Source: Squalus acanthias
Taxonomy: Eukaryota
Assembly (NCBI GenBank): GCA_030390025.1
Contig: JASTWF010000033.1
Span: 5,830,001-5,894,000 of the forward strand
Direction of reading: 5' to 3'
Length of the DNA: 64,000 nucleotides
Part shown: positions 13,623-50,838 of the stretch, one piece after another
How positions within the stretch are numbered: position 1 is the stretch's first letter
Layout of the letters: the number at the start of each line of letters is the position of its first letter
The notes under the pieces: generated by a model
Seen by the model: the letters and a program-made list of their open reading frames with translations, nothing else
The model's database searches: none
Told to the model about the DNA's origin: nothing
Translations under genes and position numbers: made by a program

Positions 13623-13627
13623 TCTCT

Positions 13628-13645: not shown

Positions 13646-13671
13646 CTGGGTTACAGGAGAGTAAATCAGTC

Positions 13672-19250: not shown

Positions 19251-19364
19251 TGTGGCCACCCGGAGACGTGTGCCGCTGTACATAACTGCTTTCTCTCCTG
19301 TCTGTTGCCTTAACTTGTCTGTATAGTTTGGAATTACATGTATGCTGTGGATACCAAATGTAAT

Positions 19365-22351: not shown

Positions 22352-22662
22352 CAAGGGGTGTTAGATTGATCCGGAAAGGTGTAATTGATTTATGTTGATG
22401 ATGGTTTCTCCCTGCAAAAACTTGTAATGTACCAAGGTTCTGTAAGCAAGTGTATAGTATTCTGGTTATAGGTTTACACTCTGTACTGTGTGATGTGCGC
22501 TGTTGTATTTTTGTAATGCGTTACCACCTGTCAATGCTGTACTGTGTGATGTGCGCTGTTGTATTTTTGTAATGTGTTACCACCTGTCAATGCTGTACTG
22601 TGTGATGTGCGCTGTTGCATTTTTGTAATGTGTTACCACCTGTCAATGCTGTACTGTGTGAT

Positions 22663-23163
22663 AAAAATGAGAAGTCGCACAACACCAGGTTATAGTCCAA
22701 CAGATTTATTTAATTTTACAAGCTTTCGGAGCTGTTCGCTCCTTCCTCAGGTAGAGTAGCAGTGAGAGAATCTCCCAGAATTCACAATATAAACACAGAA
22801 AAAATCTATTCAAATCTTTCCCAACATCAAAGACACACTAAGAGCACAGCCAAGACAATGAGATGTGTCCCAGGGGGTCCAACGTGTCAAAACACCTGCT
22901 GGCTGCATATCCTGTCAATTTGTGTTGGTTCTTGTGTTAGTCTTTTTAAAAAAAATACACCTGGAAAGACCGGCCATGATGTCAAGTCACGTTCTGTATC
23001 GTGACATGAACCCGATATCGCTACTCTACTGCTACTCTACCTGAGGAAGGAGCGAACAGCTCCGAAAGCTTGTAAAATCAAATAAATCTGTTGGACTATA
23101 ACCTGGTGTTGTGCGACTTCTCATTTTTGTCCACCCCAGTCCAACGCCTGCATCTCCACATCA
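22663..23163 (+). mobile_element. Fold-back non-autonomous Penelope-type element with two inverted hammerhead motifs
   Basis: About 100-bp inverted arms, extra 3' tail of about 30 nt on the right arm, 13-bp duplication TGTACTGTGTGAT. Confidence 0.8.
23038..23074 (+). ncRNA. Minimal type I hammerhead ribozyme motif (inverted copy near 22717-22753)
   Basis: TAC-CTGAGGA-A-GGAGC-gaaca-GCTCC-GAAA-GC-TT-GTA: CUGANGA and GAAA core, stem II, palindromic AGCU stem III, stem I UAC/GUA. Confidence 0.7.
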
Positions 23164-23962
23164 TGTACTGTGTGATGTACGCTGTTGTATTTTTGTAATG
23201 CGTTACCACCTGTCAATGCTGTACTGTGTGATGTTCGCTGTTGTATTTTTGTAATGTGTTACCACCTGTCAATGCTGTACTGTGTGATGTGCGCTGTTGT
23301 ATTTTTGTAATGTGTTACCACCTGTCAATGCTGTACTGTGTGATGTGTGCTGTTGTATTTTTGTAATGTGTTACCACCTGTCAATGCTGTACTCTGTGAT
23401 GTGCGCTGCTGTATTTTTGTAATGTGTTACCACCTGTCAATGCTGTACTGTGTGATGTGCGCTGTTGTATTTTTGTAATTTGTTACCACCTGTCAATGCT
23501 GTACTGTGTGATGTGCGCTATTGTATTTTTGTAATGTGTTACCACCTGTCAATGCTGTACTGTGTGATGTGCGCTGTTGTATTTTTGTAATGTGTTACCA
23601 CCTGTCAATGCTGTACTGGGCGATGTGTGCTGTTGTGTTATTGTAATGTGTTACCACCTGTCAATGCTGTACTGTGTGATGTGCGCGGTGACCTTTTGGT
23701 AACGTCCTGTGGATCTTATTAATGTTCTGTATTTTGACTTGAAGTTTGTCGGTGGGAATTGGAACCCAGCCATTTGAATGTGTTCAGAAGCCGTTTCGCT
23801 TATGTTTCGACTCGGTAGAAGGGAACTATGACACGCAGTAAGGGGGTACGGTTCTGGGGTTAAAATGTAAAATGAGGGAAACAGCTTCACTTGTGGGAGA
23901 CTTTGGCCTTTGCTCTCTCACCGAGTGATGCTTTGTGGAAAGAAAAGCATCAAACGGGGGAC

Positions 23963-24428
23963 TGCAGTGATCGCAAAGTCTCTGTTTGAAGAATGGACAC
24001 AGTCGAGAATATTTTGTGGATATTATGGGATTTTACTGAGGGTATTTTCCCTGTGATGGGCTCACCTGGGCAGATATGTGAAAAAGTGGTTTGTTAAAAC
24101 TCCAGAGAATGCATGGCAGTTGGCTGTGAGAAAAGAACTGTCAGTCATCCAGATTATGCAAAAGCACTTCTCACCTCCATCTCAGAAGAGAAGCAGAACA
24201 ATGAACCCACTGGCCTAGCCAGCCGGAGAGGAGCCAATTTTTCCCAACACAAAGACCGAAATATATCCCAGACTTAGGGCCATCAGTACAAACACGGAGT
24301 ACACATGGGTCTGAGGCTGACCCCATCACTGATTAAGCACCGGGGTGCTTAGAAACAAAAGGATTTTAAAGATTGGCGGGAAAGATAGGGGTAGCAAGAC
24401 TCCAATAAAGATAGATCCTTTCCCTCTA

Positions 24429-24464
<36 letters not shown>

Positions 24465-25007
24465 CCCAACAAGATCGACCTAACAAGAAGTACCAGAGGA
24501 AGAAACAGCTAAGCGGAGCGATCGAGACGGACTGTGTGTGGGGCTAAGCATGATCTCGAGTGTCCCAAGCCGGTAACCAGAGGGCTCAGAGTTTTTCTCA
24601 AAAGTGAGGCTTTTGGGCTATTCTGAGGGTCATAGCTTCCTTTTGTTCAGCCAGGCGAAAGGGCCTTATGCGACTGAGTAATTTGTTGGTAGGGGTGGAA
24701 TGAGAGTCCACCATAGCAACAAGGGAATTGCTGCTTGTCATAGTCCTCAGTTTTGTACTGTATGTATCTTGTTTGTAAGCTGGATTTTATTCTCCACAGA
24801 GTCAGTAATTTCGTTTAGTAGTGCATGTTTTAGTCAGTGTATGTTAGACCAAATAAATATAAGTTTGATCTTTCACTGAAAGATTCCTGTCCGTGGCTTA
24901 TTTCATTTACACTCTGAATAATAATTCCCGGGTATAGAACTTTCGTAAGGCGGGGGCGATTCGAACCGTCCATCTAGCAATTGGGCTAGGATCAAAAACA
25001 ACTTACA
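23963..25007 (+). repeat. 3' LTR of the ERV, preceded by a purine tract (aaacggggga)
   Basis: TGCAG...TTACA; homologous to but visibly diverged from the 5' LTR. Confidence 0.9.
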
Positions 25008-26632
25008 TAGGGAAAAGGTGTTAGGGAAATTGATGGTATTGAAGGCCGATAAATCCCCAGGGCCTGATAATCTACATCATAGGGTATGTAAGGAAGTGGC
25101 CCAAGAAATAGTAGATGCATTGCTGGTCATCTTCCAAAATTCTATCGTCTCTGGAACAGATCCCATGCATTGGAGGATAGCTAATGTAACCCCACTATTT
25201 AAAAAAGGTGGTCCAGAGAAAACGGGGAAATATAGACCGGTAAGTCTGACATCGGTAGTGGGAAAAATGCTAGAGTCCATTATAAAAGATGTAATAGCAG
25301 AGCACTTGGAAAACAGTGAAAGGATCGGACAAATTCAACATGGATTTACAAATGGTATATCATGCTTGACTAATCTACTGGAATTTTTTGAGGATGAAAC
25401 TGGTAGAATAGATAAGGGAGAACCAGTGGATGTGGTGTATTTTGACTTTCAGAAGGCTTTCGATAAGGTCCCGCATAAGAGATTAGCAAGCACATTTAAA
25501 GCACATGGGATTGGGGGTAAGGTACTGCCTTGGATAGAAAACTGGTTGGCAGACAGGAGGCAAAGAGTTGGAATAAACGGATCTTTTTACAAGTGGCAGG
25601 CAGTGACTAGTGGGGTACCGCAGGGATCGGTCCTTGGACCCCAGCTATTCACAATACATATAAATGAACTGGACAAGGGAACTAGTTGTAATATCTCCAA
25701 GTTTGTAGACGACATAAAGCTGGGTGGGTGTGTGTGCTGTGAGGAGGATGCAGATAAACTCCAGTATGATGTGGACTGGTTGGGTGATTGGGTAGATGCA
25801 TGGCAAATGCAGTATAATGTGGATAAATGCGAGGTTATCCAATTCAGTGGCAAAAACAGGAAGGCAGATTATTATCTGAACGGCAATAGATTGGGAAAAG
25901 GGGAAGTGCAACGAGACCTGGGAGTCCTTGTGCACCAGTCACTGAAGGTAAGCATGCAGGTGCAGCAGGCGGTTAAGAAGGCAAATGGTATGTTGGCCTT
26001 CATAGCGAGACGATTCGAGTACAGGAACAAGGATGTCTTGCTGCAGTTGTACAGGGCCTTGGTGAGACCACACCTTGAGTATTGTGTGCAGTTCTGGTCG
26101 CCTTATCTGAGGAAGGATGTTCTTGCCATGTTGGGAGTGTTGCGAAGATTCACCAGACTGATACCTGGGATGGCAGGAATGACATATGAGGAGAGATTGG
26201 GTCGATTAGGCTTATATTCGCTAGAGTTTAGAGAATGAGACGGGATTTCATTGAAACGTATACAATTCCAACAGGACTAGACAGACTAGATGCAGGAAGG
26301 ATGTTCCCGATGGCGGGGGAGTCCAGAACTTGGGGTCACAGACGAAGGATAAGGGGTAAGCCATTTTGGACTGAGATGAGGAGGAATTTCTTCCTCCAGA
26401 GAGTGGTGAACCTGTGGAATTCTCTACCACAGAAGGTAGTAGAAGTCAATTCATTAAATATATTCAAGAAGGAGCTAGATATATTTCTTAAGGCTAAAGG
26501 AATCAAGGGATATGGGGAGAAAGCAGGGACAGGGTACTGAATTTGGATGATCAGCCATGATCTCATTAAATGGCGGAGCAGGCTCGAGGGGCCGAATGGC
26601 CTACTCCTGCTCCTAACTTCTATGTGTCTATG
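25008..26632 (+). mobile_element. CR1 LINE 3' half (RT), beginning flush with the ERV 3' LTR
   Basis: ORFs 25018-26238 and 26235-26540; CR1 tail. Confidence 0.95.
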
Positions 26633-26633
26633 A

Positions 26634-26885
26634 AACTGAGAACAGGGGAAGTAAGGGGAACACGGTAACTGTTTAAATAGAAACAGAGAACAGGGGGAGT
26701 AAGGGAAACACGGTAACTGTTTAGTTAGATATAGCGGACAGGACGATTATGGGGAACACAACAACTGTTTAAATAGAAATAGAGGACTGGGAAATTTAGC
26801 GGAACACAGTGACTGTTTATTTGGAAATAGAGAATGGGGAAGAAAGAGGGACACGGTAACTTTTCAATTAGAAATAGAGGACAGA
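26634..26885. repeat. Degenerate tandem repeat of about 48-53 bp, about 5 units
   Basis: Recurring agaacagggg..gggaacacggtaactgttta..tagaaa. Confidence 0.7.
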
Positions 26886-28748
26886 AATAGGTGTCTTCAA
26901 ATATCCTAATATAGACTGGGATAGAAATCGTGTAAAGGGCAGAGAAGGGAACCAATTTCTGAAGTGTGTTCAGGAGAACTTTCTTGATTGGTATGTTTCC
27001 GGCCCAACGAGGAATGGGAGTTTGCTAAATCTGGTTCTGGGGGGATGAGGTGGGTCAAGTGGAGCAATTTCTGTAGGGGAACATTTAGGGAACAGTGATC
27101 ATAGAATCATAAGGTTTAGATTAGCTATTAAAAAAGGACAGGGAGCAATCTAGAGTAAAAATAGTTATTTGGAGGAAGGCCAATTTCAGTGGTTTGAGAA
27201 CTGATCTGGCCTGGGTAAATTGGAATCAAAGATTGGCAGGCAAAACTGAAATTGATCAAGGGGCTGCCTTTAAAGAGGAGATGGTTTGGGTACTGCCGAG
27301 GTACTTTCCCACAAGGGGGAACGGTAGGGCAACAAAAGCCAGAGCTCCCTGGATGATGAAAGAGATAGAGAATAAGATGAAGGAGGAAAAGGGGGAGTAT
27401 GACAGATGTCTGATTGAGAATACAAGTGAGAACCATGCTGAATATAGAAAGTTCAGAGTTGAAGTGAAAAAGGAAATAAGAGGGGAAAAGAGAGTAGGAG
27501 AATAGACTGACAGCTAACATGAAATGCAATCCAAAAGTCTTGTATATGCATATAAATAATAAACGGGTAGTAAGAGGAGGGGTAGGACCGTTTAGGGACC
27601 AAAAGGGAGACCTACGCATGGAAGCAGAGGGCATGGCTGAGGTACTAAATGAATACTCTGCATCTGTCTTTACCAAGGAAGGAATTCTGCCAAAGTCATA
27701 ATAAATGAGGAGGTAGATCAGATACTGGATGGGATAAAAATAGGTAAAGAGGAGGTAGTAGAATGGCTGGCAGAACTTAAAGTAGATAAGTCACCAGGAC
27801 GGGATGGGATGCATTCTAGGATGCGGAGGGAGGTAATGGTGGAAATTGCGGAGGTACTGGCCGTAATCTTCCAATCCTCTTTAGATACAGGGGTGATGCC
27901 AGAGGAAAGGAGAATTGCAAATGTTACACCCTTGTTCAAAAAAAGGCTGGGAGGATAAACCCAGCAACCACAGACCAGCCAGTTTATCCCCGATAGTGGG
28001 GAAGCTTTTAGCAACGATAATCCGGGACATAAGTAACAGTCACTTGGACAAGTGTGGATTAACTATGGAAATACTGCACGGATTTGAGAAAGGCAAATCA
28101 TGTTTAATGAACTTGAGTAGTTTTTTGATGAGGTAACAGAGAGTGTTGATGAGGGCAATGCGGTTGATGTGGTGTACATGAACATGAGACCAGCGTCGAC
28201 AGCGGGGGAGGAGGAGCCTTTCTTTCTTTCTCTCTCCCACAGAGCGGTCGGCAGCGGGGAAGGAGGGGCGGACCTGGTTGGAGCGGCAGAGGCCTGAGGT
28301 GAGTCATTAAAGGGAGGCCCGAGGCTCAGGTAGGCCTCAGACCAGCGTCGACAGCAGGGTAGGAGGAGCCTTTCTTTCTTTCTCTCTCCCACAGAGCGGT
28401 CGGCAGCGGGGAAGGAGGGGCGGACCTGGTTGGAGCGGCAGAGGCCTGAGGTGAGTCATTAAACTCACCTACGTGGCCTTTTTCCCCAGCGGGGAAAGAG
28501 CTTCGCGGGCTTTTTCAAAGGCAGGGGGCGGGGCCAATTCATTGGTACCCGTATATAGGTGGAGCTGTTGCTAAACCCGAGACAATACACTAGTAGTGAC
28601 TCCCACCCTCCCACCTCCTCTAACCTTTAGGGGTAGAGGGAATTTAAAAGGTAGGTTCGATTTTATATTTTGTTTTCAGGGACTTAACTCCTGGACCTAA
28701 GATAAATAAGTTTAAATTTTAGTAATAAAGTAACATAAGGGTTAAGTC

Positions 28749-29693
28749 ATGACAGGAAGTCTCGGACCCGTTTCATGCTCCTCCTGTGCCATGTGGGAAA
28801 CCAGGGACACTTCCAGTGTCCCTGACAACTACGTGTGCGGGAAGTGTGTCCAGCTGCAGCTCCTGACAGCCCGCATGGCGGTGCTGGAGCTGCGTGTGGA
28901 CTCACTCTGGAGCATGCACGATGCCGAGAACTCGGTGAATCGCTCATTTAGTGAGTTGTCCACACCGCAGGTAAAGGCTAGGACAGACAGTGAATGGGTG
29001 ACCAAGAAGCAGGGCAATATCAGGAAGGTAGTGCAGGAGTCCCCTGTGGTCATCTCCCTCCAAAACAGGTATGCCGCTTTGGATACTGTTGGGGGAGATG
29101 GCCTACCAGGGGAAGGCACTAGCAGCCAGGTTCATGGCACCATGGCTGGCTCTGCTGCACAGCAGGGCGGGAAAAAGAGTGGTAGGGCTATAGTGATAGG
29201 GGACTCAATTGTAAGGGGAATAGACAGGAGTTTCTGTGGCCGCAACCGAGATTCCAGGATGGTATGCTGCCTCCCTGGTGCAAGGGTCAAGGATGTCTCG
29301 GAGCGGCTGCAGAACATTCTGAAGAGGGAGGGTGAACAGCCAGCTGTCGTGGTGCATGTAGGTACCAACGATATAGGTAAAAAGCGGGAAGAGGTCCTAC
29401 AAGCAGAATTTAGGGAGCTAGGAGCTAAATTAAAAAGTAGGACCTCTAAGGTAGTAATCTCTGGATTGCTACCAGGGCCACGTGCTAATCAGAATAGAGA
29501 GAACAGGATAGTGAGATTGAATACGTGGCTTGAGCAGTGGTGCAGGAGGGAGGGATTCAAATTCCTGAGGCATTGGAACCAGTTCTGGGGGAAGTGGGAC
29601 CTGTACAAAAGGGACGGTCTGCACTTGGGCAGGACTGGAACCGATGTCCTCGGGGTAATATTTGCTAAAGCAGTTCGGGAGGATTTAAACTAA
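28749..29693 (+). CDS. CR1 ORF1p: CxxC..CxxC zinc finger, leucine zipper, SGNH/GDSL esterase
   Basis: CSSC..CGKC; IVIGDSIVRG, HVGTND, DGLHL; intact 314 aa. Confidence 0.9.
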   Translation: MTGSLGPVSCSSCAMWETRDTSSVPDNYVCGKCVQLQLLTARMAVLELRVDSLWSMHDAENSVNRSFSELSTPQVKARTDSEWVTKKQGNIRKVVQESPVVISLQNRYAALDTVGGDGLPGEGTSSQVHGTMAGSAAQQGGKKSGRAIVIGDSIVRGIDRSFCGRNRDSRMVCCLPGARVKDVSERLQNILKREGEQPAVVVHVGTNDIGKKREEVLQAEFRELGAKLKSRTSKVVISGLLPGPRANQNRENRIVRLNTWLEQWCRREGFKFLRHWNQFWGKWDLYKRDGLHLGRTGTDVLGVIFAKAVREDLN

Positions 29694-32642
29694 TATGGCA
29701 GGGGAATGGGAACCTATGTAGCGAAACAGGGGGAAGTAATATGCAGTCAGAAACAAATGTTAGAAGGGTGAGAAACAATAGGGGAAGGCCGAGTAAACAA
29801 AGGCAAGAAACACAAAGGGCCATAGTAAATCATAAGTCTAAAAGGACAAAGGATGTTAATAAAACAAGCCTAAAGGCTCTGTGTCTTAATGCAAGGAGTA
29901 TCCGTAATAAGGTGAATGAATTGACTGTGCAAATAGATGTTAACGGATACGATGTGATTGGGATTACAGAGACGTGGCTCCAGAACAATCAAGGCTGGGA
30001 ACTGAACATCCAGGGGTATTCAACATTCAGAAAGGATAGAATAAAAGGAAAAGGGGGTGGGGTAGCATTGCTGGTTAAAGAGGAGATTAATGCAATAGCT
30101 AGGAAGGACATCAGCTTGGAGTATGTGGAATCAATATGGGTTGAGCTGCAGAACACCAAAGGGCAGAAAACGTTAGTGGGAGTTGTGTACAGACCTCCAA
30201 ACAGCAGTAGTGAGGTGGGGGAGGGTATGAAACAGGAAATCAGAGGTGCGTGCAAAAAAGGCACGGCAGTTATCATGGGTGACTTTAATAAGCATATAGA
30301 TTGGGCTACTCAAACTGGAAGCAATACGGTGGAGGAGGATTTCCTGGAGTGTTTAAGGGATGGTTTCCTAAACCAATATGTTGAGGAACCAACTCGAGGG
30401 GAGGCCATCCTGGACTGGGTGTTGTGTAATGAGGAGGGACTAATCAGCAATCTTGTGGTACGAGGCCCCCTGGGGAAGAGTGACCATAGTATGGTGGAGT
30501 TCTACATTAGGATGGAGAAGGAAACAGTTAAGTCAGAGACCATGGTCCAGAACTTAAATAAGGGCAACTTTGAGGGTATGAGGCGTGAATTGGTGAGGTT
30601 AAATTGGCAAGCGATATTTAAGGGGCTATCAGTGGAAGGGCAATGGCAGACATTTAGAGATCGCATGGATGAACTACAACAATTGTACATCTCGGTCTGG
30701 CGTAAAAATAAAAAAGGGAAGGTGGCTCAACCATGGCTAACAAGGGAAATCAGGGATAGTATTAAAACCAAGGAAGTTGCATACAAATTGGCCAGAAGTA
30801 GCAGCAAACCCGGGGACTGGGAGAACTTCAAAACTCAGCAGAGGAGGACGAAGGGTTTGATTAGGGCAGGGAAAATAAAATATGAAAGGAAGCTTGCAGA
30901 GAACATTAAAATGGACTGCAAAAGCTTCTATAAATATGTAAAAAGAAAGAGGTTAGTAAAAACAAACGTAGGTCCCCTGCAGTCGGAAACAGGGGAAGTC
31001 GTAATGGGGAACAAGGAAATGGCAGATCAATTGAACAAGTACTTTGGTTCGGTGTTTACTGTGGAGGACACACACAACCTGCCGGAAATAAAAGGGGTCA
31101 GAGGATCTGGTAAGAGGGAGGAGCTGAGGGAAATCCTTATTAGTCGGGAAAAGGTATTGGGGAAATTGATGGGACTGAAGGCTGAAAAATCCCCGGGGCC
31201 TGATGGTCTGCATCCCAGAGTACTTAAGGAGATGGCCTTGGAAATAGTGGATGCATTGACGATCATTTTCCAACATTCCTTAGACTCTGGATCAGTTCCG
31301 ATGGAGTGGAGGGAGGGAGAAAGCAGGGAATTATAGACCGGTCAGCCTGACATCGGTCGTGGGTAAAATGATGGAAGCAATTATTAAAGATGTCATAACA
31401 GACCATTTGGAAAGTGGCGACATGATATGTCCAAGTCAGCATGGATTTGTGAAAGGGAAATCATGCTTGACAAATCTTCTGGAATTTTTTGAGGATGTTT
31501 CCAATCGGGTGGACAGGGGGGAACCAGTAGATGTGGTGTATTTGGACTTTCAGAAGGCCTTCGACAAGGTCCCACACAAGAGATTGGTGAGCAAAGTTAA
31601 AGCACATGGGATTGGGGGTAATGTGTTGACGTGGATTGAGAACTGGTTGGCACACAGGAAACAAAGAGTAGGAGTAAATAGGTACTTTTCAGAATGGCAG
31701 GCAGTGACCAGCGGGGTACCGCAGGGTTCGGTGCTGGGACCCCAGCTGTTTACATTATATATTAATGATTTGGACGAAGGGATTAAATGTAATATCTCCA
31801 AATTTGCGGATGACACTAAATTGGGAGGCAGTGTGAACAATGAGGAGGATGCTAGGAGGCTACAGAGTGACTTGGACAGGTTGGGTGAATGGGCAAATGT
31901 ATGGCAGATGAAGTACAATGTGGATAAATGTGAGGTTATCCACTTTGGTGGTAAAAATAGAGAGGCGGACTATTACCTGAATGGTGGCAGATTAGGGAAA
32001 GGGGACGTGCAACGAGACCTGGGCGTCATGGTACATCAGTCACTGAAGGTGGGAATGCAAGTGCAGCAGGCAGTCAAGAAAGCAAACGGAATGATGGCCT
32101 TCATAGCAAGGGGATTTGAGTACAGGAGTAGGGAGGTGATGCTACAGTTGTACAGGGCCTTGGTGAGGCCACACCTGGAGTATTGTGCGCAGTTTTGGTC
32201 TCCTAACTTAAGGAAGGACATTCTTGCTATTGAGGGAGTGCAGCGAAGGTTCACTAGATTGATTCCTGGGATGGCCGGATTGACATATCAAGAAAGATTG
32301 GGTCAACTGAACTTGTATCCTCTGGAGTTCAGAAGAATGAGGGGGGATCTTATAGAGACATTTAAAATCCTGACTGGTTTAGACAAATTAGATGCGGGCA
32401 GAATGTTCCCAATGGTAGGGAAAACTAGAACCAGGGGTCACAGTTTAAGGATTAAGGGGAAGCCATTTAGGACTGAGCTGAGGAGAAACTTCTTCACCCA
32501 GAGAGTGGTGAATCTATGGAATTCTCTTCCACAGAAGGTTGTTGAGGCCAGTTCGCTAAATATATTCAAAAGGGAGTTAGATATAACACTCACAACTAAG
32601 GGGATCAAGGGGTATGGCGAGAAAGCAGGAATGGGGTACTGA
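29684..32642 (+). pseudogene. CR1 ORF2 (APE + RT) with a frameshifting deletion near 31310
   Basis: ORFs 29741-31336 and 31359-32642; VANVTPLFKK motif missing at the break. Confidence 0.9.
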
Positions 32643-32851
32643 GGTAGCATGTTCAGCCATGAACGCATTGAATGGCGGTGCAGGCTCGAAGGACCGAATG
32701 GTCTACTCCTGTACCTATTTTCTATGTTTCTATGTTTCTAAAAAGGCTTTTGATAAAGTGCCAGATAATAGGATTGCCAGAAAAGTTGAAGCCCATGGAA
32801 TAAAAGGAACAGTGGCAGCATGGTACGAAATTGGCAATGTGACAGGAAACA

Positions 32852-36600: not shown

Positions 36601-36644
36601 GTTCCTCGACATATTGTTCCAGAAAACCATCTCGTAAACATTCT

Positions 36645-36791
36645 GTGGAGATGCCGGCGTTGGACTGGGGTGGACAAAAATGAGAAGTCGCACAACACCA
36701 GGTTATTGTCCAACAGATTTATTAAATTTTACTTGTAAAATTAAATAAATCTGTTGGACTATAACCTGGTGTTGTGCGACTTCTCATTTTT
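36645..36791 (-). mobile_element. Minimal 147-bp fold-back Penelope-type insertion in CR1 ORF2
   Basis: 11-bp TSD GTAAACATTCT (36634-36644 and 36792-36802); absent from the sister CR1 copy near 6125. Confidence 0.85.
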
Positions 36792-37454
36792 GTAAACATT
36801 CTAGGAATTCCTCCTCCACGGTATTTTTACTAATTTGGTTAGCCCAATCTATATGTAAATTAAAGTCACCCATGATGACTGCTGTGCCCTTACTGCATGC
36901 TTCTCTAATTTCCCTTTTAATGCCGTCCCCAACCTCCGTATTGCTGTTTGGAGGTCTATATACCACTCCCACTAACGTTTTCTGCCCCTTGTTATTTCTC
37001 AGTTCTACCCATACAGATTCCACATCATCAGAGCTAATATCCTTCCTTTCAATTGTGTTAATCCCCTCTTTAACCAGCAATGCTACCCCACCTCCCTTTC
37101 TTTTTTGCCTATATTTCCTAAATATTGAATAACCCTGCATGTTGAGTTCCCAGCCTTGGCCACCCTGGAGCCATGTTTCTGTAATCCCAATCAAATCGTA
37201 TTCATTTACCTCTATTTGTGCAGCTAATGCATCCACCTTGTTCCGAATGCTCCTTGCATTAAGACACAAAGCCTTCAGGCTTGTTTTTTTAACGCTCTCA
37301 GACCTATATGAATTATTATTTACTGTGACCATGTTTGATTAAAACCGTTGAGTTCTTTGCCTTCTACTTTTGTTTTTCTCCTTCCTGTCTTTAGCTTTTA
37401 TACTTATTTCCCTTTCCTCTGTCTCCCTGCTCAGGTTCCCAACCCCATGCCACT

Positions 37455-38396: not shown

Positions 38397-38899
38397 GACT
38401 TACCCTTTAATTAATTAATTAAAATTAAACTCATTGAATCCCACCAATTTCACTTCAATTAAATGATATACTCAAGGGCCCTTGCTTAACAGCAGTCTCC
38501 GCTAAACCACAGAGACCCTAGAAACTATAAACCACAGAATCATGAGGTGTATAGTCAGAGTAGAGAGAGCGAAACTGTTCCCATTGGCGGAAGGGTCGCG
38601 AACCAGAGGACACAGCTTTAAGGTGATTGGCAGAAGAACCAAAGACGACATTTGGAAAAAAAAATGATGCAACGAGTGGTTCTCATCTGGAATGCCCTGC
38701 CTGAAAAGGTGGTGGAGACAGATTCAATCGTGGCTTTCAAAAGGGAATTGGATAAGTACGTGAAGTAAAATTATCAGGGCTATGGGGACAGGGAAGTGGA
38801 GTGGGACTAGTTGAAGTTCTCTTGCAGAGAGCTGGCACGGGCCCGACGGGCCGAATGGCCTCCTTCTATGCGGTAAATTTATATAATTTTATTATTGAC

Positions 38900-39031
38900 C
38901 TTTGCAATGGAATAGCACTTTAAAATGGAATAGATCTTTTCAATATAATAGCACTTTGCAATGGAATAGCAATTTGCAATATAATAGTCCTTTGCAATGG
39001 ACTAGCACTTTGCAGTATAATTGCGCTTTGC
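38900..39031. repeat. 18-bp tandem repeat, about 7 units
   Basis: CTTTGCAATGGAATAGCA with TGGAAT and TATAAT variants. Confidence 0.8.
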
Positions 39032-40068
39032 GGTGGACTGTGATTTTAAATGGGCTCCACTTGTGTTGCAGGATGGGGTCCCGCCCCGCTGCTTTGTGCC
39101 ATTGTCTGGAGCCGCTCACAGGCTGCGCTGCTGCTCACACATAACCAGGCAGGCAGCACATGGTGCAGGGAGGAAGGAAGGAAGGAATGGCGGCTGCAGC
39201 TCGCCAGCTTGGCTCCTGTGTGTGTGTGAGTGTGGAGCTCAGGACCAAAAGGGGCTGGGGCATTGGAGGGGGTGAAATGCATGTAGGGGGTGATTGATGC
39301 CCCAAGAGATGGGCATGGAGGGAGGGTGAAAAGAAGCAAATAAAATCAAGAATAAATAATAATAATAACATATGTTCTTTACTTCTGTAAATGAAATGTC
39401 TGCATTCTGTGATTTGAGTGGAGTGGAATAAAATGAATGGAAAGATCTCACAGCAGCTTTTGCTCTGAAAACACTCGACAAACATTCTCCAATAGAGCCC
39501 AGTCCAGAAAAATCATCAAATGGATTATTCTGAAAATAATAATAAAATAAATATAATATATATATACTTTGTTTTTACAAAATTCTTGTCTTGTCTTAGT
39601 TGGGTTGGGAATTAAAGGGAGAGTAAAGTCCCACAGCAGGATATGCAAACATTCCACGATAAAGTCCAGTCAAGAAAAAAATCAAATGGCTTGTTGTATA
39701 TATGTAGCTTTGATTTTTACAAGTCTTGAAAGAAAGGCAAAGTAAGATCCCACAGCAGTGCGGTCTGGAATGAAATCAGTATGATCTAATGGTGTATACT
39801 TTCTGTTTTTTTCAGACAACAGATGCAGTACCAATGCACACGGCAGATAAATTGAACACAGACAAGCCCTGCATACACACCAGCTTTTGCTGTCTGTCTC
39901 TCTCTCTCACACACACACACACAAACACAGGCCAGCCTGCAAAATTGCCACACAATGAAAGAAAGCTCTGCTGTGTTTGGCAGTTTAAAAGTAAAAAAAC
40001 ACTTTTCAGTATCTTATCTCTTCATTTTGCGGCCTACTGAATTAGGCTTTATATTCTGCATCAAGAGC

Positions 40069-40300
40069 AAAATACTGCGGATGCTGGAAATCTGAAATTA
40101 AAACAGAAAATGCTGCAAATACTCAGCAGGTCAGGCAGCATCTGTGGAGAGAGAGATAAACAGAATTAATTCAGCTCGATGACCTTTCGTCAGATTCTGA
40201 TCACAGGTCATCGAACTGAAACGTTAACTATGTTTCTCACTCTCTCCACAGACTCCGCCTGAGCTGTTGAGTATTTACAGCATTTCTGTTTTGATTTCTA
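40069..40300. mobile_element. Short palindromic repeat with two decayed hammerhead-like cores (paralogous copy near 50392-50645)
   Basis: Inverted arms around ttcagctcgatgacctttcgtcag / ctgatcacaggtcatcgaactgaaacgttaac. Confidence 0.6.
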
Positions 40301-40366
40301 TTCTGCCTGTTGTCTTAATTTCATGTGTCTCTCTCATTGCCTGCCTGCCTTGTCTTGATTTGAGTG

Positions 40367-41141
40367 TGATGATGCGGAGATGCCGGTGTTGGAAGGGGTG
40401 GACAAAAGTGAGAAGTCGCACAACACCAGGTTATAGTCCAACAGTTTTGTTTGAAATCACAAACTTTCGGAGCAGCTGCCCCTTCGTCAGGTGAAGTGAA
40501 GGAATACGAATCGGCAAAGCATATATAGACAGAGAACAATGCCTGTGTAGCGTACAATGTCAGACGACTACAGTTAATCTATCTGACTGCCTATCATCAC
40601 ACCTCGGCAGAGAAACAATCAGGTCAGTCAGGAAGGCACCACATCAAAGACATAGCAAGATACAACTGAGACAATGAGGTGGGGTCACAGGGGGTCTAAT
40701 GTGTCAAATGCTGCAGTCTGTATGGAAAACCATAAACTTTAAAATTTTTACTCGAGTCGTCGTTGGCTTGTGACAGATGTAATTTCCAGTAAAAAAAGGT
40801 AAAAATGTTAAAGTTTATGGTTTTCCATATAGACTGCATTTGACACATTAGACCCACTGTGACCCCACCTCATTGTCTCAGTTGTATCTTGCTATGTCTT
40901 TGATGTGGTGCCTTCCATGCTGACCTGCTTGTTTCTCTGCCGAGGTGTGATGATAGGCAGTCAGATAGATTAACTGTAGTCGTCTGAGATTGTACGCTAC
41001 ACAGGCATTGTTCTCTGTCTATATATGCTTTGCCGATTCGTTATCCTTCACTTCACCTGACGAAGGGACAGCAGCTCCGAAAGCTTGTGATTTCAAATAA
41101 AGCTGTTGGACTATAACCTGGTGTTTTGCGACTTCTCACTT
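40367..41141 (-). mobile_element. Long fold-back Penelope-type element (arms of about 350 bp) with hammerhead motifs
   Basis: About 40401-40751 is inverted at about 40790-41144; TSD TTGATTTGAGTG; empty paralogous site near 50310-50335. Confidence 0.85.
41053..41088 (+). ncRNA. Hammerhead ribozyme motif (inverted copy near 40457-40494)
   Basis: TCAC-CTGACGA-A-GGGAC..GCTCC-GAAA-GC-TT-GTGA; stem I UCAC/GUGA; stem II imperfect in this arm. Confidence 0.6.
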
Positions 41142-42639
41142 TTGATTTGAGTGGAGTGGAATAAAAAGAATGCAAAGATCCCAGAGCAGCTTTTATTGTC
41201 AGACAGTCCACAAAGACATTTTTCAGTATCTCACTGACTGACTGTCTGTCTTGAAGTAAAGTGAAGTGAAATAAAGTACAATAAAGTGATACACAACAGC
41301 ATTACATTTGAACAAGGCAAGAATGAAATCAACAGGGTTTAATACAACAACAGCAGATAATAAGACAGCCGACCACATCTCACACAAACACAAGCTTTTG
41401 CCCTCTCTCTCTCTCTCTCTCGCTCACACACACACACACACACACACAGCCTGTCCAGCCTGGAGAATGATGACGGCCATGTTGGAAAATTGAAACCAAA
41501 TATACACTTTTCTGTATCTTATCTTTTCACTTTGTGGCCTAAAGAAGCAAGCTTTCTATTCTGCATCTTGCCTTTTGATTTCATGTCTCGCCCTCTCACT
41601 GGCTATCTGTCTGTCTGTCTCTCACTCACACACTCTCCCTCCCATCCAGTGCGAAATAAAACTTAGTGACATGACACACAGATTCTGACATTTGCAGAAA
41701 CACACACACACAGACTCTGCAATTTGTAGAAACTCACACTCACACACACATACAGACACACACACACAGACTCTGCAATTTGCAGAAACTCACACTCACA
41801 CACACACACAGACACGCTCACACAGACTCTGCAATTTGCAGAAACTCACACTCACACACACACATCCAATTTGAAAGGGGTGCAGCCTGGAGTGTCTATT
41901 TTTGATGATGGTCCCTTCCTGGCTGTGCGTCCATGTTTGATGAGGACAATCCAACAGGAAGAAGTGAAGCCGAGGCCCCAGAAATCCGGGTCCCCGAGAC
42001 GAAATGAAAGCCCGGGAGTTGAAAAGAAGTAAATACAATCAGGAATAAATAATATATATACTTTACTTCTGTTAATTAAATGTCTGCCTGTCTGTGGTTT
42101 GCCTGAAGTGTAATAAAATGAATGGAAAGATCGCACAGCAGGTTTTGCTCTGTAAACATCCCAAGGACATTCCCCAATAAAGCCCAGTTCAGAAAAAAAT
42201 CAAATGGATTATTCTGAAAATAATTTTAAAAATATAATATTGTTGAGGCTGCCGCGAAACACGAATGGAGGCTGAATCCATATGTGGAAAACAAGAAACT
42301 TTAATTCACTGCATGGCACACAAAATAGCTGAGAAAGCTGCTCCCAGAATTCACTGGAAAAACCCTGAAGACCCGCCCACTCCTGTTTTAAAGGTAAGGT
42401 TCACCGATATATTGTCCACAGACGGAAAAGTGGGTTATGCCCGTTTAGGTGGCGATACGCCACACAGCTCCCCCCAGAATCCGCTTAGGATGTGTGGACG
42501 AGACGGTGCGGCGGTCTGATGGGCCAGCCGGAGCGGCTCTTGTAGGACGCCGGTGGACGTGGAACGGCCGGGTGTGGAGCAGCGGGGTGAACCGGCTTGA
42601 GGGCAGGTCGGCCGCATGGTGGTGGACGAGCTTAAGGGA

Positions 42640-45620
42640 CTTGCTCACCGGGCTCCGAGTGTGCTGGCTTGAGTCAGTCAACCGACACTTTTTCGATCCT
42701 GTTGCCCACTTGCAGGGTGAAAAATTTGTCCCCAGCCTGTAGCACCTTGTAGGGCCCGTCGTACGGGGGTTGGAGGGGTCCACGGACGAAAACAAACCGT
42801 GCCTGGTGCAGGCTTAGTGGGACGTGTGAGGTGGATTCGCCATGTCGGGCAATGGGCAACGGGGCGAACTGCAGCGCCGGTGAGGCGAAGTCGTGGTGTT
42901 GCTGGTCGGCTGACCAGGGTGTCGTGGCGGTGGGCAGGAACTCGCCGGGTACGTGCAGCGGCTGACCTTACATGAGCTCTGCTGCCGATGCGTGGAGGTC
43001 TTCTTTAACCATGGTGCGCAGGCCGAAGAGGACCCACGGAAGTCGGTCGGTCCAGGCGCCGTCTTGGATGCTGGCTCGAAGAGATGCCTTCAATGATCTG
43101 TGGAACTGCTCACACAGTCCGTTGGCTTGGGGGTGGTATGCTGTGGTGCGGTGAATGGTCACCCCGAGATTGCGTGCAACAGCGGTCCAGAGTTCAGAGG
43201 TAAATTGCGGACCTCTGTCCGACGTCATGTCGGAAGGGACGCCGAACCGTGCGACCCAGGTGCTGACGAAGGCTCTGGCGATGTCGGCGGTGGTGGTAGA
43301 GGTCAGTGGAATTGCCTCAGGCCAGCGTGTGGTGCGGTCAACGATGGTCAGCAAGTGCGTGTGGCCTTGCGACGGCGGCAGGGGCCCGACGATGTCCATG
43401 TAGATGTGGTCGAATCTCCGCGAGGGGACGGTAAACTCGTCGAGGGGTGCTTTGGTGTGTTGCTGTACCTTGGCCCGTTGGCAGGCTAGGCAGCAGTTGG
43501 CCCAAGTACGCACATCCTTGCGAAGGCCGCACCAGACGAAGCGGTTGGCTACCAATTTGATGGATGCGCGGGCACCGGAGTGGGAGAGGTTGTGGAGAAT
43601 GTCGAATACCCGGCGGCGCCAGGACGCTGGGACGACGGGCCGAGGTTGACATAGGGATATGTCGCACTTGACCATGACTGCGGTCGGGCCACAGGCGACG
43701 TCGGCCAGGCGTAGCCCGGGTAGGTTGGTGGGTGCAGAGAGCAGATCAGGGTCGGTGATCTGGTCTGCTGCGAGTTGAGCGTAGTCGACTGCTAGGTGTG
43801 CGGCGTAGATGGCGGGGCGGGAGAGTCAGTCGGCTACCACATTGTCTCGGCCGGAGATGTGTTGGATGTCCGTGGTGAACTCGGACACTGCCGCGAGCTG
43901 GCGCTGCTGCCTGGCAGACCAGGGGTCGGTTGTCTTTGCCATTGCGAATGTCAGGGGCTTGTGGTCGACAAACGCCGTGAAGGGCTGGCCGTCAAGCAAA
44001 AACTGGAACTGGCGGACCGCAAGGAAAAGCGCGAGGAGCTCGCGGTCAAAGGTGCTGTACTTGACCTCCGGGGGGCGTAGTTGGCGGCTGAAGAAGGCAA
44101 GTGGTTGCCAGGCACCGTCGACCCATTGCTCATACATGGCGCCGACCGCGTGGTCGGAGGCGTCCGTGGTGAGCGCTACCCTGGCATTGGTCCGTGGGTG
44201 CGCGAGCAGGGTGGCCGTTGGCGAGCGCGGTCTTGGAGGAGTCGTAGTCGGCTGACGCGTCTGCCGTCCATTCGACTGCCATCTTGCCGCTCCTGCCCCA
44301 GAGGGCTTCATACAGGGTCCTCATGAGGAACGCCGCTTTGGGGATGAAGCTGTCATGAAATTCACCATCCCAAGGAACTCCTGGAGGCCTTTGATGGTGG
44401 TGGGGCAGGGAAATTGTTGGACGGCCTGCACCTTGGTAGGCAGGGGAATGGCCCCAGCATGGGTGATGTGGTGGCCGAGGAAGTCGATCTTGTCCAGGTC
44501 GAACTGGCATTTGGCTGGGCTGAGGATGAGCCCGTGTTTGCTGAGCCGCCCAAACAGGATGCGGAGGTGTTCCAGGTGTTCCTGCTTGGAGGAACTGCCT
44601 ACCAGGATGTCGTCCAGGTAGACGAACAGGAACATCAGGTCCCGAAGGACCGAGTCCATGAGCCGTTGGAATGCCTGGGCCGCGTTTTTGAGGCCGAAGG
44701 GCATCCGCAGGAACTCGAACAGGCCGAAGGGGGTGATTACGGCCATCTTGGGGACGTCCGCGGGGTGGATGGGGACTTGGTGGTAGCCGCGCACCAGGTC
44801 GACCTTGGAAAACACTGAGCGGCTGGCCAGTCTAGCCGAGAAGTCCTGAATGTGCGGCACGGGGTACCGATCAGGGGTGGTGGCGTAATTGAGGCGGCGG
44901 TAATCCCCGCAGGGGCGCCAACCTCCGCCTGGTTTGGGGGCGATGTGGAGTGGGGAGGCCCAGGGACTGTTGGAGCGGCGGATGATGCCGAGCTGTTCCA
45001 TGGTGGCAAACTTGGTCCGCGCGATCTCCAGTTTGGCTGGGTCCAGCCTGCGGGCGTGGGCGTACACTGGGGGGCCTGTGGTGGGGATGAAGTGTTCCAC
45101 CCAGTGTTTGGCGGCCACCGCGGAGACGGTCGGATTGGTAAGGGCCGGGAATTCGGCCAGGAGTGCCGAGTAGTCATCCATGGCCAGGGCGTGGCACTGT
45201 GACGCCATGTCGGCGGGTTGACGGGGGGCCATGGCGCCCAGGATGGGGGACATGGTGTTCATGTCCACGAGGCGGTGACAAGGGATGTCTACCAGTAGGC
45301 CGTGGGTGCACAGGAAATCTGCGCTGATGAGAGGGGAGAGCACCTTGGCAGTGATGAACTCCCATCAGTAGCGGGGACCAGCGAGGGCGAGGGTGACTGT
45401 CCGGGTGCCATACGTCCGGATTTCCGAGCCGTTAGCAGCAGCAAGCGCCGGTCCTCGTACGCCCTTTTGGATGTCGAGGGAGGAGGCCGCGATGATGCTG
45501 TGCTGAGCCCTAGTGTCGCACAGGAACCAGCGGCCGGTTTTGTCATTCGTGACGTACAGCAGGGAGCTAGCGTGTCCCACGGCCTTCGTGGGGGCTTGTA
45601 CGGGGGCGGACTTCAAAGTG
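42640..45620 (-). pseudogene. pol: Gypsy pol (PR-RT-RH-IN), frameshifted
   Basis: ORFs 45365-45616, 44321-45343, 43826-44311, 42968-43675 and 42674-42859 (PYDGPYKV GPY/F motif). Confidence 0.9.
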
Positions 45621-46306
45621 CAGGGAGGTGTGCACCGTTGTGCCCTGGCGCCGAACCGTGCGTGGTAGTAAAAGTGGCCCAGGTTAGTGGGGCGCGAAGG
45701 CCACGTGGGCCTGGTGGTTTATCCTTGTGGCCGCGTGGTGAAGGTGAGGGGCGCGCCCAGGCATTGGCTGCCAGGTCCGGAGTGACGTCGCGGCTGGAGT
45801 GAGCGGACAGCAGCTTGTCGGCCTCATCGGCCAGGGCTTCCAGGTGCGTGAGGCCGGATGCCACGATCGCTGGGCGGATGCTGAGAGGGAGCTGGCGGAT
45901 GAACAGCATGCGGAAGAGGGATCTGGGTGGGCTCTCGTCGGTGAGGGAGTGCATGTGGGAGAGGAGGTCTGACGGTGAGGCATCACCGAGGCCTGGAAGG
46001 TCGAGGAGGTGGCAGTTTCGCTGATATGCCGAGGCCGTAATTTTTTTAAGGAGCGCTGCCTTGAGATGTGCATAATTGCCTTCCTCTGGTTGGTTCTGCA
46101 GCGCTGTCCAAACCTTCGAAACTGTGGCGCTACCGAGTGATGTGATGAGGTAGTCATACTGCGTCCCATCTGTGGTGGTGTTTCACAGCCGGAAGCGGGA
46201 TTTAGCTTGGAGAAACCAGGCTTAGGGCTGGTTTTCCCAAAACTCAGGCAGTTTCACAGAAACTGCGTTCATGTCCGCCATTGCAGTGCTCGAAATACGT
46301 TCTGAG

Positions 46307-46320
46307 CGTCGGGGTCACCA
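46307..46320 (-). promoter_or_regulatory. Primer binding site, tRNA-Trp
   Basis: TGGTGACCCCGACG, 1 nt inside the 5' LTR boundary; matches the well-known Trp PBS. Confidence 0.85.
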
Positions 46321-47438
46321 ATGTTGAGGCTGCCGCGAAACACGAATTAAGACTGAATCCATGTGTGGAAAACAAAGGCTTTTTAATACAACTGCATGGT
46401 CCAAAATGGCTGAACAGACTGCTCCCAGAATTCTCTGGAAAAACCCTGAGGCCATGACCACTCCTTTTCTCCTGCCTTAAAGGCAAGGAGCCTTAAAGGC
46501 AAGTTGCCCGATATTTTGTCCACGGACGGAAAAGTGGATAATGCCCGTTTAGGTGGCGATCCGCCACAATTTGATATTTAACTGGACTTTATTTAACAGG
46601 GGAATGTTTGTTGAGTGTTTCATGGCATTTCCTGTAGTGGGATTTTACTCTCCCCTTCAGCCCAACCCAAACAAGATATTTGTAAAACAAAAGTATGTAT
46701 AAAATATTTTAAATTATTTTCAGAATAATCCATTTGATTTTTTTCTGAACTGGGCTTTATTGGGGAATGTGCTTGTGATGTTTTCAGAGCAAAACATGCT
46801 GTGAGATCTTTCCATTCATTTTATTACATTCCAGGCAAACCACAGACAGGCAGACATTTAGTTCACAGAAGTAAAGTATATATATTATTCTTTATTCCTG
46901 ATTGTATTTACTTCTTTTCACCCTCCCGGGACTTCATTTCCTCTCGGGGACCCGGATTTCTGGGGCCTCGGCTTCACTTCTTCCTGTTTGATTGTCCTCA
47001 TCAAACATGGCCGCACAGCCAGGAAGGAACATCATCAAAAATTGACACTCCAGGCTGAACCCCTTTCAAAATAAATGTGTGTGTGTGAGTGTGAGTTTCT
47101 GCAAATTGCAGTGTCTGTGTGAGTGTGTGTGTCGTGTTCCGGTAAATTTTAGTTCAATGTGGTTAGGAGGGAGACTGTGGGAGTGACAGACAGCCAGACA
47201 GTCAGTGAGAGCGAGAGAGACATGAAATAAAAAGGCAAGTAGCAAAATAGAAAGCCTGTTTCTGTAGGCCACAAAGTGAAATGATAAGATACTGAAAGTC
47301 TCTGTTTGGTTATAATCTTCCAACATGGCAGTCATCCCTCTGCAGGCTGGCCAGGCTGTGAGTGTGTGTGTGGGAGAGAGAGAGAGGGCAAAAGCGGGTG
47401 TTTGTGTGAGATGTGGTCTGCTGCCTTATTACCTGCTG

Positions 47439-47625
47439 AGAAGTCGCACATCACCAGGTTATAGCCCAACAGATTTATTTAAAAATACGAGAATTCGGAG
47501 CTGTTACCTTTACCTGACGAAGGGGCAACAGCTCCGAAAGCTCGTAAATTTGTTGGACCATAACCTGGTGTTGTGCGACTTCTCATTTTTGTCCACCCCA
47601 GTCCAATATCGGCATATATGCATCA
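47439..47625 (+). mobile_element. Fold-back Penelope-type insertion with a hammerhead at about 47508-47547
   Basis: 13-bp TSD TTATTACCTGCTG; TTTAC-CTGACGA-A-GGGGC-aaca-GCTCC-GAAA-GC-TC-GTAAA. Confidence 0.85.
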
Positions 47626-47656
47626 TTATTACCTGCTGTTGTGGTATTAAACCATA

Positions 47657-50799: not shown

Positions 50800-50838
<39 letters not shown>

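What the first reader, a model, noticed from the sequence alone, without database searches (positions are those of the whole stretch)
22663..47625. Non-coding fold-back retroelement family carrying hammerhead ribozymes
Seen: four independent insertions (22663-23163, 36645-36791, 40367-41141, 47439-47625) share one architecture: inverted arms, one with an extra tail of about 30 nt (..ccaccccagtccaacgccggcatctccacatca), 11-13-bp TSDs and no ORF. Three contain CUGANGA-A-stem II-GAAA-GC-UH, with stem I covarying between copies (UAC/GUA, UCAC/GUGA, UUUAC/GUAAA) and a palindromic AGCU stem III. The bodies of the 22.7-kb and 40.4-kb copies are related but diverged. Known: Penelope-like elements carry minimal hammerheads in pseudo-LTRs, with inverted 5' copies and short tails. 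Inference: a non-autonomous, retrozyme-like family that self-cleaves, probably as a dimer, and was recently mobile because it interrupts a young CR1.
Basis: partly seen in the sequence, partly recalled or inferred. Interest (0 to 1): 0.78.

Follow-up and report, generated by a model that had tools for sequence, protein, structure and literature searches.

The report
Head-to-head Penelope retrotransposon stubs
These four mirror-image insertions are real, but one still carries the last ten codons of a Penelope-type jumping-gene protein, so they are most likely shortened back-to-back copies of an ordinary protein-coding element in a probable shark genome, in a layout already published, rather than a separate self-cutting RNA family.

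Summary
Observation confirmed: four insertions with exact 13/11/12/13-bp duplications, inverted arms, a one-sided 31-42-nt tail, and five minimal hammerhead motifs in three of them. The unique body of the 22.7-kb copy is the longer, tail-less arm read on the minus strand, and it begins with the last ten codons of a protein (DIGFMSRYRT-stop). In all 4 runs laid, contigs leave the window there and continue in frame; the result matches the C-terminus of RT + GIY-YIG proteins of Penelope-like elements (PLEs) with a Neptune/Nematis-type linker, whose named relatives are mostly from sharks. An inverted 5'-truncated copy, a 30-40-bp tail, a duplication and a pLTR hammerhead are the published signature of PLE insertions. 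The hammerheads lie on opposite strands and are predicted to be buried in the arm duplex, so these copies are not retrozymes. Likely mechanism: both nicked target strands prime reverse transcription at two nearby RNA sites. One arm (36.7 kb) ends exactly at the predicted ribozyme cut; one case only. The scan has reported this pattern before (731 notes, at least 49 genomes). No genome was available; cleavage is untested.

The parts
22650..22662 (+). E1 left target-site duplication (13 bp), inside a 56-bp minisatellite
22663..23019 (-). E1 tail-less arm: 5'-truncated PLE copy = ORF end + 3' UTR + hammerhead + terminus
22987..23019 (-). Last 10 codons and stop of a PLE RT/GIY-YIG ORF (DIGFMSRYRT*)
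22715..22755 (-). Minimal type I hammerhead, C3 at 22750, predicted cut between 22720 and 22719
23020..23027 (.). E1 private head-to-head junction (short duplication or filler); depth of laid contigs collapses here
23028..23163 (+). E1 tailed arm (start between 23020 and 23028); hammerhead C3 at 23041, predicted cut before 23072; tail 23129-23163
23164..23176 (+). E1 right target-site duplication
36634..36644 (+). E2 left target-site duplication (11 bp), in the endonuclease region of CR1 ORF2
36645..36732 (-). E2 tailed arm; tail 36645-36675; its inner end is the first base after the predicted hammerhead cut; no hammerhead core
36733..36791 (+). E2 tail-less arm; inner end 0-3 nt before the predicted cut
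36792..36802 (+). E2 right target-site duplication
40355..40366 (+). E3 left target-site duplication (12 bp)
40367..40798 (-). E3 tailed arm (second subfamily); tail 40367-40405; hammerhead C3 at 40490; the unpaired centre 40752-40798 belongs to this arm
40799..41141 (+). E3 tail-less arm; hammerhead C3 at 41057 with a stem II mismatch
41142..41153 (+). E3 right target-site duplication
47426..47438 (+). E4 left target-site duplication (13 bp)
47439..47508 (-). E4 tail-less arm, truncated inside stem II; decayed half hammerhead
47503..47625 (+). E4 tailed arm (start uncertain, about 47502-47509); hammerhead C3 at 47514, predicted cut before 47544; tail 47584-47625
47626..47638 (+). E4 right target-site duplication

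Best explanation
The four elements are insertions with two head-to-head arms, a one-sided tail and 11-13-bp duplications, one of them ends in the last ten codons of a Penelope-type protein, and they are most likely dead, 5'-truncated copies of protein-coding Penelope-like retrotransposons (Neptune/Nematis type), likely made when both nicked target strands prime reverse transcription on the element's RNA. Shown: boundaries, duplications, empty sites, arm orientation, the ORF end in E1 and its in-frame continuation in public runs, the hammerhead motif in the terminal repeat. Inferred: the GIY-YIG endonuclease makes a staggered cut 11-13 bp apart; one 3' end primes at the distal start site (giving the tail) and the other at a site 31-42 nt upstream (giving the tail-less arm); both cDNAs stop early and are joined at their inner ends with a few bases of overlap or filler; gap filling gives the duplication. 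The hammerhead is inherited from the parent's pseudo-LTR and would act, if at all, in the parent's tandem transcript, as a dimer or with protein help, not in these palindromes. Confidence 0.88 for the identity; about 0.6 for two-ended priming.
For: E1's body aligns to E3's only on the minus strand, so it is the tail-less arm. Contigs of 4 runs cover 22663-23019 and depth collapses at the junction: X1 from 1.29e6 (22987-22990) to 1.3e4 (23027-23030), X5 from 0.92e6 to 3.5e3. Loose ends behind 23018-23023 agree in all 4 runs (listed contigs X1 3+8, X5 4+9, X6 2+1+2, X8 2+1+3; 34 rows not shown); read by eye in element sense most give F-R-T-H-E-D-G-L-N-R in frame before the window's DIGFMSRYRT*. 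P0215 ends in the same residues (8 of 8 over DIGFMSRY) and P0159 (643 aa, Heptranchias perlo, RT motifs + CX2-5CxxC linker) ends almost identically. A matrix from 41 such C-termini ranks -23019 first of 90,727 eight-mers, 22.6 bits against 16.6 next (the motif span was chosen after seeing the target). Metagenome loci found through the hammerhead motif alone show the same order, ORF end - UTR - hammerhead - terminus (L010, stop-to-core 208 nt against 236 in E1; L011, 752 nt). The layout is described as typical of PLEs (PMC8557442 passages; PMC3846280 passages: inverted pLTR, 31-bp tail, 9-10-bp TSD). A purified PLE protein cleaves and extends both strands and starts at two sites that bound the tail (PMC11167929). 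In E1 each arm holds sequence that the other lacks (tail; about 250 nt upstream), which simple fold-back copying cannot give. Common variants in the hammerhead fall at N7 (22746), loop II (22733-22735) and outer stem I (22754-22755), none in the core or stem II, as expected if the motif is conserved in parent elements.
Against: No intact PLE ORF is in the window (tblastn of 9 proteins, best E 0.025, on a LINE RT) and no genome was held, so no full element with this terminus was seen in one piece. Only 10 codons lie in the window and loose ends show at most 30 letters; one listed row (X6, 23023) departs from the frame after a few codons. E3 and E4 stop short of an ORF, so their parents are unseen. 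E1's asymmetry could come from a later deletion at the centre of a longer palindrome. PMC3846280 favours self-priming on an antisense template for such junctions.
Confidence: 0.88

Rival explanations
1. The fold-back units are a non-autonomous family in their own right: the whole palindrome is transcribed, processed by its hammerheads and re-inserted by a PLE protein in trans.
For: No complete ORF in any copy. Non-autonomous PLE derivatives exist (PMC8557442 passage on Chlamys; bioRxiv 2026.07.22.740005). E3 has about 90 nt more UTR than E1 and no ORF end. Contigs from two runs guessed to be RNA cover E1, though that does not show independent transcription.
Against: All four junctions and lengths differ; the 15 joints listed (56 more not shown) scatter over many positions; contigs bridging E1's own junction are scarce. 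E1 ends in ORF codons. Hammerheads face opposite ways, so they cannot release a unit-length RNA; minimum-energy folds bury the core fully in E1 and E3 and partly in E4. E2 has no core.
Confidence: 0.07
2. The copies are truncated PLE insertions, but the inverted arm arises by fold-back or self-priming of one cDNA (or of an antisense template), not by priming from both target strands.
For: PMC3846280 reads palindromes at inverted junctions as self-priming. E2 is an almost perfect hairpin with a 2-nt centre, and arms within an element are always of the same subfamily. E1's two arms share a stem I variant that is the minority form in 3 of 4 runs (22754), which fits fold-back as well as one RNA read twice.
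Against: In E1 the tail-less arm reaches about 250 nt further upstream than the tailed arm. Tail-less arms all stop within 0-7 nt of one anchor, tailed arms 38-44 nt past it, matching two start sites better than a copy that stops short by chance.
Confidence: 0.3
3. They are MITEs or fold-back DNA transposons moved by a DDE transposase.
For: Short, non-coding-looking, with inverted ends and a duplication.
Against: The inverted repeat is not flush with both ends (31-42-nt one-sided tail), the duplication length varies (11-13), inner ends vary, and E1 holds a retroelement ORF end. None of 28 window ORFs scanned in Pfam hit a DNA transposase; the one integrase hit (42968-43825) lies beside an RT.
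Confidence: 0.02

Closest known systems
Endonuclease-bearing Penelope-like elements with inverted 5'-truncated copy and tail (PMC8557442 Fig. 2 legend; Pen2/Pen2a of Adineta vaga, PMC3846280)
   Same: Head-to-head inverted copy, 30-40-bp tail on one end, target-site duplication, heavy 5' truncation, hammerhead in the pLTR, ORF ending in a GIY-YIG domain.
   Different: These copies are very short (147-775 bp), both arms are truncated, duplications are 11-13 bp against 8-10 bp in the Adineta cases read, and no direct (partial-tandem) pLTR is present.
Neptune/Nematis-type PLE proteins of sharks in public databases (P0159 Heptranchias perlo; P0060 Rhincodon typus; P0008 unnamed, 881 aa)
   Same: Same C-terminal residues as E1's frame and its continuation; RT motifs GTAMG and RYIDD; CX2-5CxxC linker.
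Minimal type I hammerheads of metazoan PLEs (PMC4209133)
   Same: CUGANGA, extra base before stem II, G10.1-C11.1 pair, 3-5-bp stem I, palindromic remnant of stem III; that paper also notes pairs 100-700 bp apart on opposite strands.
   Different: Stem II is 5 bp here against 7-8 bp in the Schistosoma families; shark copies were not mentioned in the two parts read.
Non-LTR retrozymes of animals (PMC7229834; bioRxiv 10.64898/2026.07.22.740005)
   Same: Type I hammerhead related to PLE pLTRs; long duplications when present.
   Different: Retrozymes are head-to-tail tandem repeats with same-strand hammerheads that release monomers and circles; these are single head-to-head insertions, one with ORF codons and one without a hammerhead core.
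PAc, Poseidon element of the green anole (PMC11167929)
   Same: Tail bounded by two reverse-transcription start sites; both strands cleaved and extended in vitro; hammerhead near the terminus.
   Different: PAc is Penelope/Poseidon clade and its ORF starts inside the hammerhead; here the core has no ATG at that place. PAc's hammerhead was dispensable for insertion and no RNA ends were found at its cut site.

Membership tests
EN+ Penelope-like elements | Terminal repeat lies directly downstream of an ORF ending in a GIY-YIG domain | tested here: met
   E1 holds the last 10 codons; in-frame continuation in 4 of 4 runs; matches C-termini of RT + EN proteins; same order in L010 and L011. Shown for the E1/E2 subfamily only.
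EN+ Penelope-like elements | An intact RT + GIY-YIG ORF with this terminus in the same genome | not testable with these tools
   No genome held; none in the window.
EN+ Penelope-like elements | Inverted 5'-truncated copy at the 5' end | tested here: met
   4 of 4 elements.
EN+ Penelope-like elements | 30-40-bp tail at one end only | tested here: met
   35, 31, 39, 42 nt.
EN+ Penelope-like elements | Target-site duplication with a single copy at the empty site | tested here: met
   13, 11, 12, 13 bp; empty sites spanned in sister repeats for E2, E3, E4.
EN+ Penelope-like elements | Minimal type I hammerhead in the pLTR | tested here: met
   5 cores, 4 pass the descriptor, 0.05 expected; limited covariation.
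Neptune/Nematis clades | CX2-5CxxC linker between RT and EN | tested here: met
   Present in L011's ORF and in 6 of 6 long relatives examined; definition from PMC8557442. Seen in relatives, not in the window.
Neptune/Nematis clades | Placement in an RT phylogeny | not tested
   No tree was built; no reference clade sequences were held as usable proteins.
Non-LTR retrozymes | Head-to-tail tandem units with at least two same-strand hammerheads | tested here: not met
   Single insertions; hammerheads on opposite strands; no tandem array of these units.
Non-LTR retrozymes | No coding sequence | tested here: not met
   E1 carries ORF codons; E2-E4 carry none.
Non-LTR retrozymes | Self-cleavage and circular RNA | not testable with these tools
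   Only contigs were offered; they cannot show RNA ends or circles.
MITE / DDE transposon | Terminal inverted repeats flush with both ends and a fixed duplication length | tested here: not met
   One-sided tail; 11-13-bp duplications.
MITE / DDE transposon | Association with a DDE transposase | tested here: not met
   0 of 28 window ORFs scanned hit a transposase; the body links to a PLE ORF instead.

The most novel reading that the evidence does not exclude
These stubs record the unresolved step of Penelope integration: a protein dimer primes from both nicked target strands at two fixed sites of one RNA, and a share of the cDNAs run off at the hammerhead cut, so that the inner ends (exactly so in the 36.7-kb copy) are genomic proof that the minimal ribozyme cleaves in vivo during the cycle, although it was dispensable in vitro.
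Probability: 0.3. Interest if true: 0.6.

Novelty: new member of a known kind. Interest (0 to 1): 0.25.

Why it matters
As a family it is ordinary: a very abundant Penelope-like element in a probable shark genome, leaving insertions in a published layout. It matters for annotation, since such stubs can pass for MITEs, microRNA hairpins (Rfam's best matches here) or retrozymes. Its value is as test material: how PLEs make inverted ends and what their hammerhead does are open questions, and a count of inner and outer arm ends over thousands of copies would test two-ended priming and in vivo cleavage directly. Four copies cannot settle this.

Tried and rejected
Whole-genome search: no genome held. 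Rfam at E<=1: 11 matches, none a hammerhead; the top ones are microRNA models matching the palindromes, all below gathering score. Exact terminal 26-mer: 0 in viral contigs, 0 in metagenome contigs. Hammerhead motif: 0 in viral contigs; 20 loci in metagenomes, of which I kept 3 (L008, L010, L011; L008 and L011 are one family) and set aside 17 as chance or unrelated, judged by eye from flanks and BLAST; L008 was left out of the alignments as a duplicate of L011 over the motif. An idea that the FDTLDP block shared by E1 and E3 is the ORF end was dropped: it lies about 100 nt downstream of the real stop. My first recalled label 'Poseidon-type' was dropped for Neptune/Nematis-type after the linker was seen. 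A full profile of 45 EN domains did not detect the 10-codon remnant significantly (E 1.4, second rank). Pfam found nothing in L011's ORF and GIY-YIG above cut-off in only 1 of 8 relatives scanned (P0021). A direct protein search with the E1 frame was not possible (too short, stops). Monomer folding z-scores are weak (-2.1 to +0.3) and are no evidence of activity. Coverage in runs X6 and X8 was not taken as expression (RNA status is a guess, contigs only). Search of earlier findings by sequence returned nothing. A CR1 target preference is not seen here: 1 of 4 copies is in CR1, 2 in another repeat, 1 in a minisatellite. Supplement searches for the C-terminal motif found nothing. Supplements of the bioRxiv preprint were not seen and may list shark families.
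Full report
Setting. The window is repeat-dense vertebrate-type DNA: several CR1 LINE copies with a GDSL-type ORF1, LTR-type elements and minisatellites. No whole genome was held. I call the four elements E1 (22663-23163), E2 (36645-36791), E3 (40367-41141) and E4 (47439-47625).

The observation. Sister copies of the host repeats run across the empty sites of E2 (4 copies), E4 (2) and E3 (1, gapped). The arms are inverted, with 104/105, 55/57, 329/342 and 53/60 identical pairs. Measured from one anchor, tail-less arms stop after 7, 7, 5 and 0 nt and tailed arms after 42, 38, 44 and 42 nt, so the tail is 35, 31, 39 and 42 nt. The CR1 that E2 interrupts is 97.6% identical to a sister over 3354 nt, with ORF1 open and one stop in ORF2 at the empty site.

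The hammerheads. Five cores exist, two in E1, two in E3, one in E4, none in E2. Four pass a descriptor that found 0.05 per shuffled window in 100 shuffles; the fifth has a stem II mismatch. Rfam reports none. On 7 aligned motifs, 2 of 10 pairs show compensatory change, only one of them among the window copies, so the covariation is real but thin. A second line comes from contigs laid on E1: within the motif, listed common variants fall at N7, in loop II and at the outer stem I, none in the catalytic core or stem II, and the 22754 variant, the majority form in 3 of 4 runs, lengthens stem I to 4 bp (only contigs 85% alike and differences above 5% are listed). A homodimer fold of E1's motif pairs the AGCU palindrome between strands, as proposed for minimal PLE hammerheads (PMC4209133, parts 1-2 of 4 read). 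In the inserted palindromes, however, the two motifs lie on opposite strands and the predicted fold buries them in the arm duplex, fully in E1 and E3 and partly in E4.

What the body is. E1's body aligns to E3's only on the minus strand (score 81 against 22.7 +/- 3.3), so it is the long, tail-less arm, and the tailed arm is the short one. Contigs from 4 runs (of 24 listed) cover all of 22663-23019; 12,074 and 10,409 contigs were laid from the two DNA runs, and summed depth falls about a hundredfold or more at 23020-23030. That is E1's private junction. Just there, loose ends in all 4 runs continue with the same sequence. Read by eye in element sense, most give F-R-T-H-E-D-G-L-N-R in frame before the window's own DIGFMSRYRT and stop (22987-23019); one listed row departs after a few codons.

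The protein. A metagenome scan with the hammerhead motif alone gave 20 loci, 3 of them true relatives. L010 shows an ORF end of the same kind, 208 nt of UTR (236 in E1), the hammerhead and a terminus 79-82% like the window's; L011 shows a 177-residue GIY-YIG-type frame with a CX2-5CxxC linker, then UTR and hammerhead; L008 carries PLE-type RT sequence in inverted orientation. Searches from L011's frame returned RT + endonuclease proteins. P0215 ends in FRTHEDGLNRDIGFMSRYM; P0159 (Heptranchias perlo) and P0008 (881 aa) have RT motifs, the linker and nearly the same end. Named hits are mostly sharks, and P0060 is from the whale shark, so the host is probably a shark (inference). A matrix from 41 C-termini ranks E1's frame first of 90,727 eight-mers (span chosen after seeing the target), whereas a whole-domain profile gave only E 1.4. 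The linker marks Neptune and Nematis among C-terminal-EN clades (PMC8557442 passages); I built no tree. E2 shares E1's terminus (60/60 and 95% over 88-89 nt). E3 and E4 are other subfamilies and stop before any ORF; E3's unpaired centre belongs to its tailed arm (1 of 1000 shuffles).

How it likely works. The published layout of PLE insertions is a 5'-truncated copy, an adjacent inverted truncated copy and a 30-40-bp tail at one end (PMC8557442 passages; PMC3846280 passages). A purified PLE protein cleaves and extends both target strands and starts at two RNA sites that bound the tail; its hammerhead needs the protein and is dispensable for insertion (PMC11167929, parts 1-2 of 4). Joining these gives the model I favour: staggered cut, one strand primed at the distal site, the other at the proximal site, early stop of both cDNAs, head-to-head joining. 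E1 supports it, because each arm has sequence that the other lacks; a later central deletion is the alternative. E1's arms share a minority variant, which fits one template but does not separate two-ended priming from fold-back. PMC3846280 prefers self-priming on an antisense template, and PMC11167929 saw no strand difference in start sites. I found no paper stating the two-ended model for PLEs: 'Penelope + twin priming + inverted' listed 2 papers, neither on PLEs by title and neither read; one search listed none by title; passages of PMC11167929 do not make the link. The library lacks most subscription papers, so this is not proof of absence.

One odd detail. E2's tailed arm begins at exactly the first base after the predicted cut, and its other arm 0-3 nt before it. 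Of 8 arms, 5 end within about 55 nt around the ribozyme and 3 extend far upstream. My rough estimate is that one exact hit among 8 short arms has a 5-10% chance; none of the 15 joints listed sits at the cut (56 not shown). It is a lead only.

Comparison and membership. It works like, and by every feature testable here is, an EN+ PLE insertion. It is not a non-LTR retrozyme, which is defined by head-to-tail repeats with same-strand hammerheads (PMC7229834 passages; bioRxiv 10.64898/2026.07.22.740005, parts 1-3 of 5; its supplements not seen), nor a MITE.

Earlier notes of the scan. A word search found 731 findings in at least 49 genomes and 813 fitting notes in this genome. The ones shown already read such palindromes as PLE stubs, several with two-ended priming and inner ends at an RNA start or ribozyme cut; one prefers fold-back. 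They are unchecked and not independent support. I noted the E2 cut-site match before reading them; the shared-variant check and the wording 'two-ended' come from them.

Verdict. Real feature, new member of a known kind, interest 0.25. The mechanistic reading is testable with a genome-wide count and would deserve about 0.6 if shown.

Noticed in passing
window 39320-42240, 46300-47450 and 50130-52000: Three copies of an unnamed repeat of roughly 2-3 kb (77-92% alike in pieces) with no long ORF listed. E3 and E4 are both inserted in copies of it, at homologous places about 200-250 nt apart. Could be chance or a target preference.
   Followed up: partly
window 40095-40300 and 50386-50616: Inside that repeat lies another imperfect palindrome of about 205 nt (81% self-complementary) with a CUGANGA on the minus strand but no intact GAAA-UH; possibly an older fold-back of a different hammerhead-bearing family. 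No duplication of 7 bp or more was found at its edges.
   Followed up: partly
window 13500-19400 (+): A broken LTR-type or retrovirus-like element: gag-like frame with a CCHC knuckle, protease-like motif, RT (PF00078), a spacer and RNase H (PF00075), integrase-like frames, split by several stops or frameshifts. Class not determined.
   Followed up: no
window 42968-46250 (-): GC-rich LTR-retrotransposon-like remnant with RT and integrase domains.
   Followed up: no
window 7054-12605: A 29-bp minisatellite of about 191 copies with extreme GC skew, starting where a CR1 copy (3712-7056) ends; 2.4 copies of the same unit lie at 3642-3712 on the other side, so the CR1 seems to sit inside the array.
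   Followed up: no
window 22481-23686: E1 is inserted in a 56-bp minisatellite (3.2 units left, 9.3 right); the register restarts 13 bp back, consistent with a true duplication.
   Followed up: yes
L010 540-1005: A truncated PLE end with hammerhead and shark-like terminus sits between stretches that look bacterial, in a marine metagenome contig; probably a chimeric assembly.
   Followed up: no
proteins P0018, P0225, P0231, P0232: Shark gene models (cytochrome P450, septin, XRCC5, PPP1R12A isoforms) include pieces of this element's endonuclease domain, by annotation error or exonisation.
   Followed up: no
window 22824-22891, 40641-40708, 40839-40906: A 68-nt block in the 3' UTR is about 79% identical between the E1 and E3 subfamilies while its surroundings have diverged; it may be a cis element.
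   Followed up: partly
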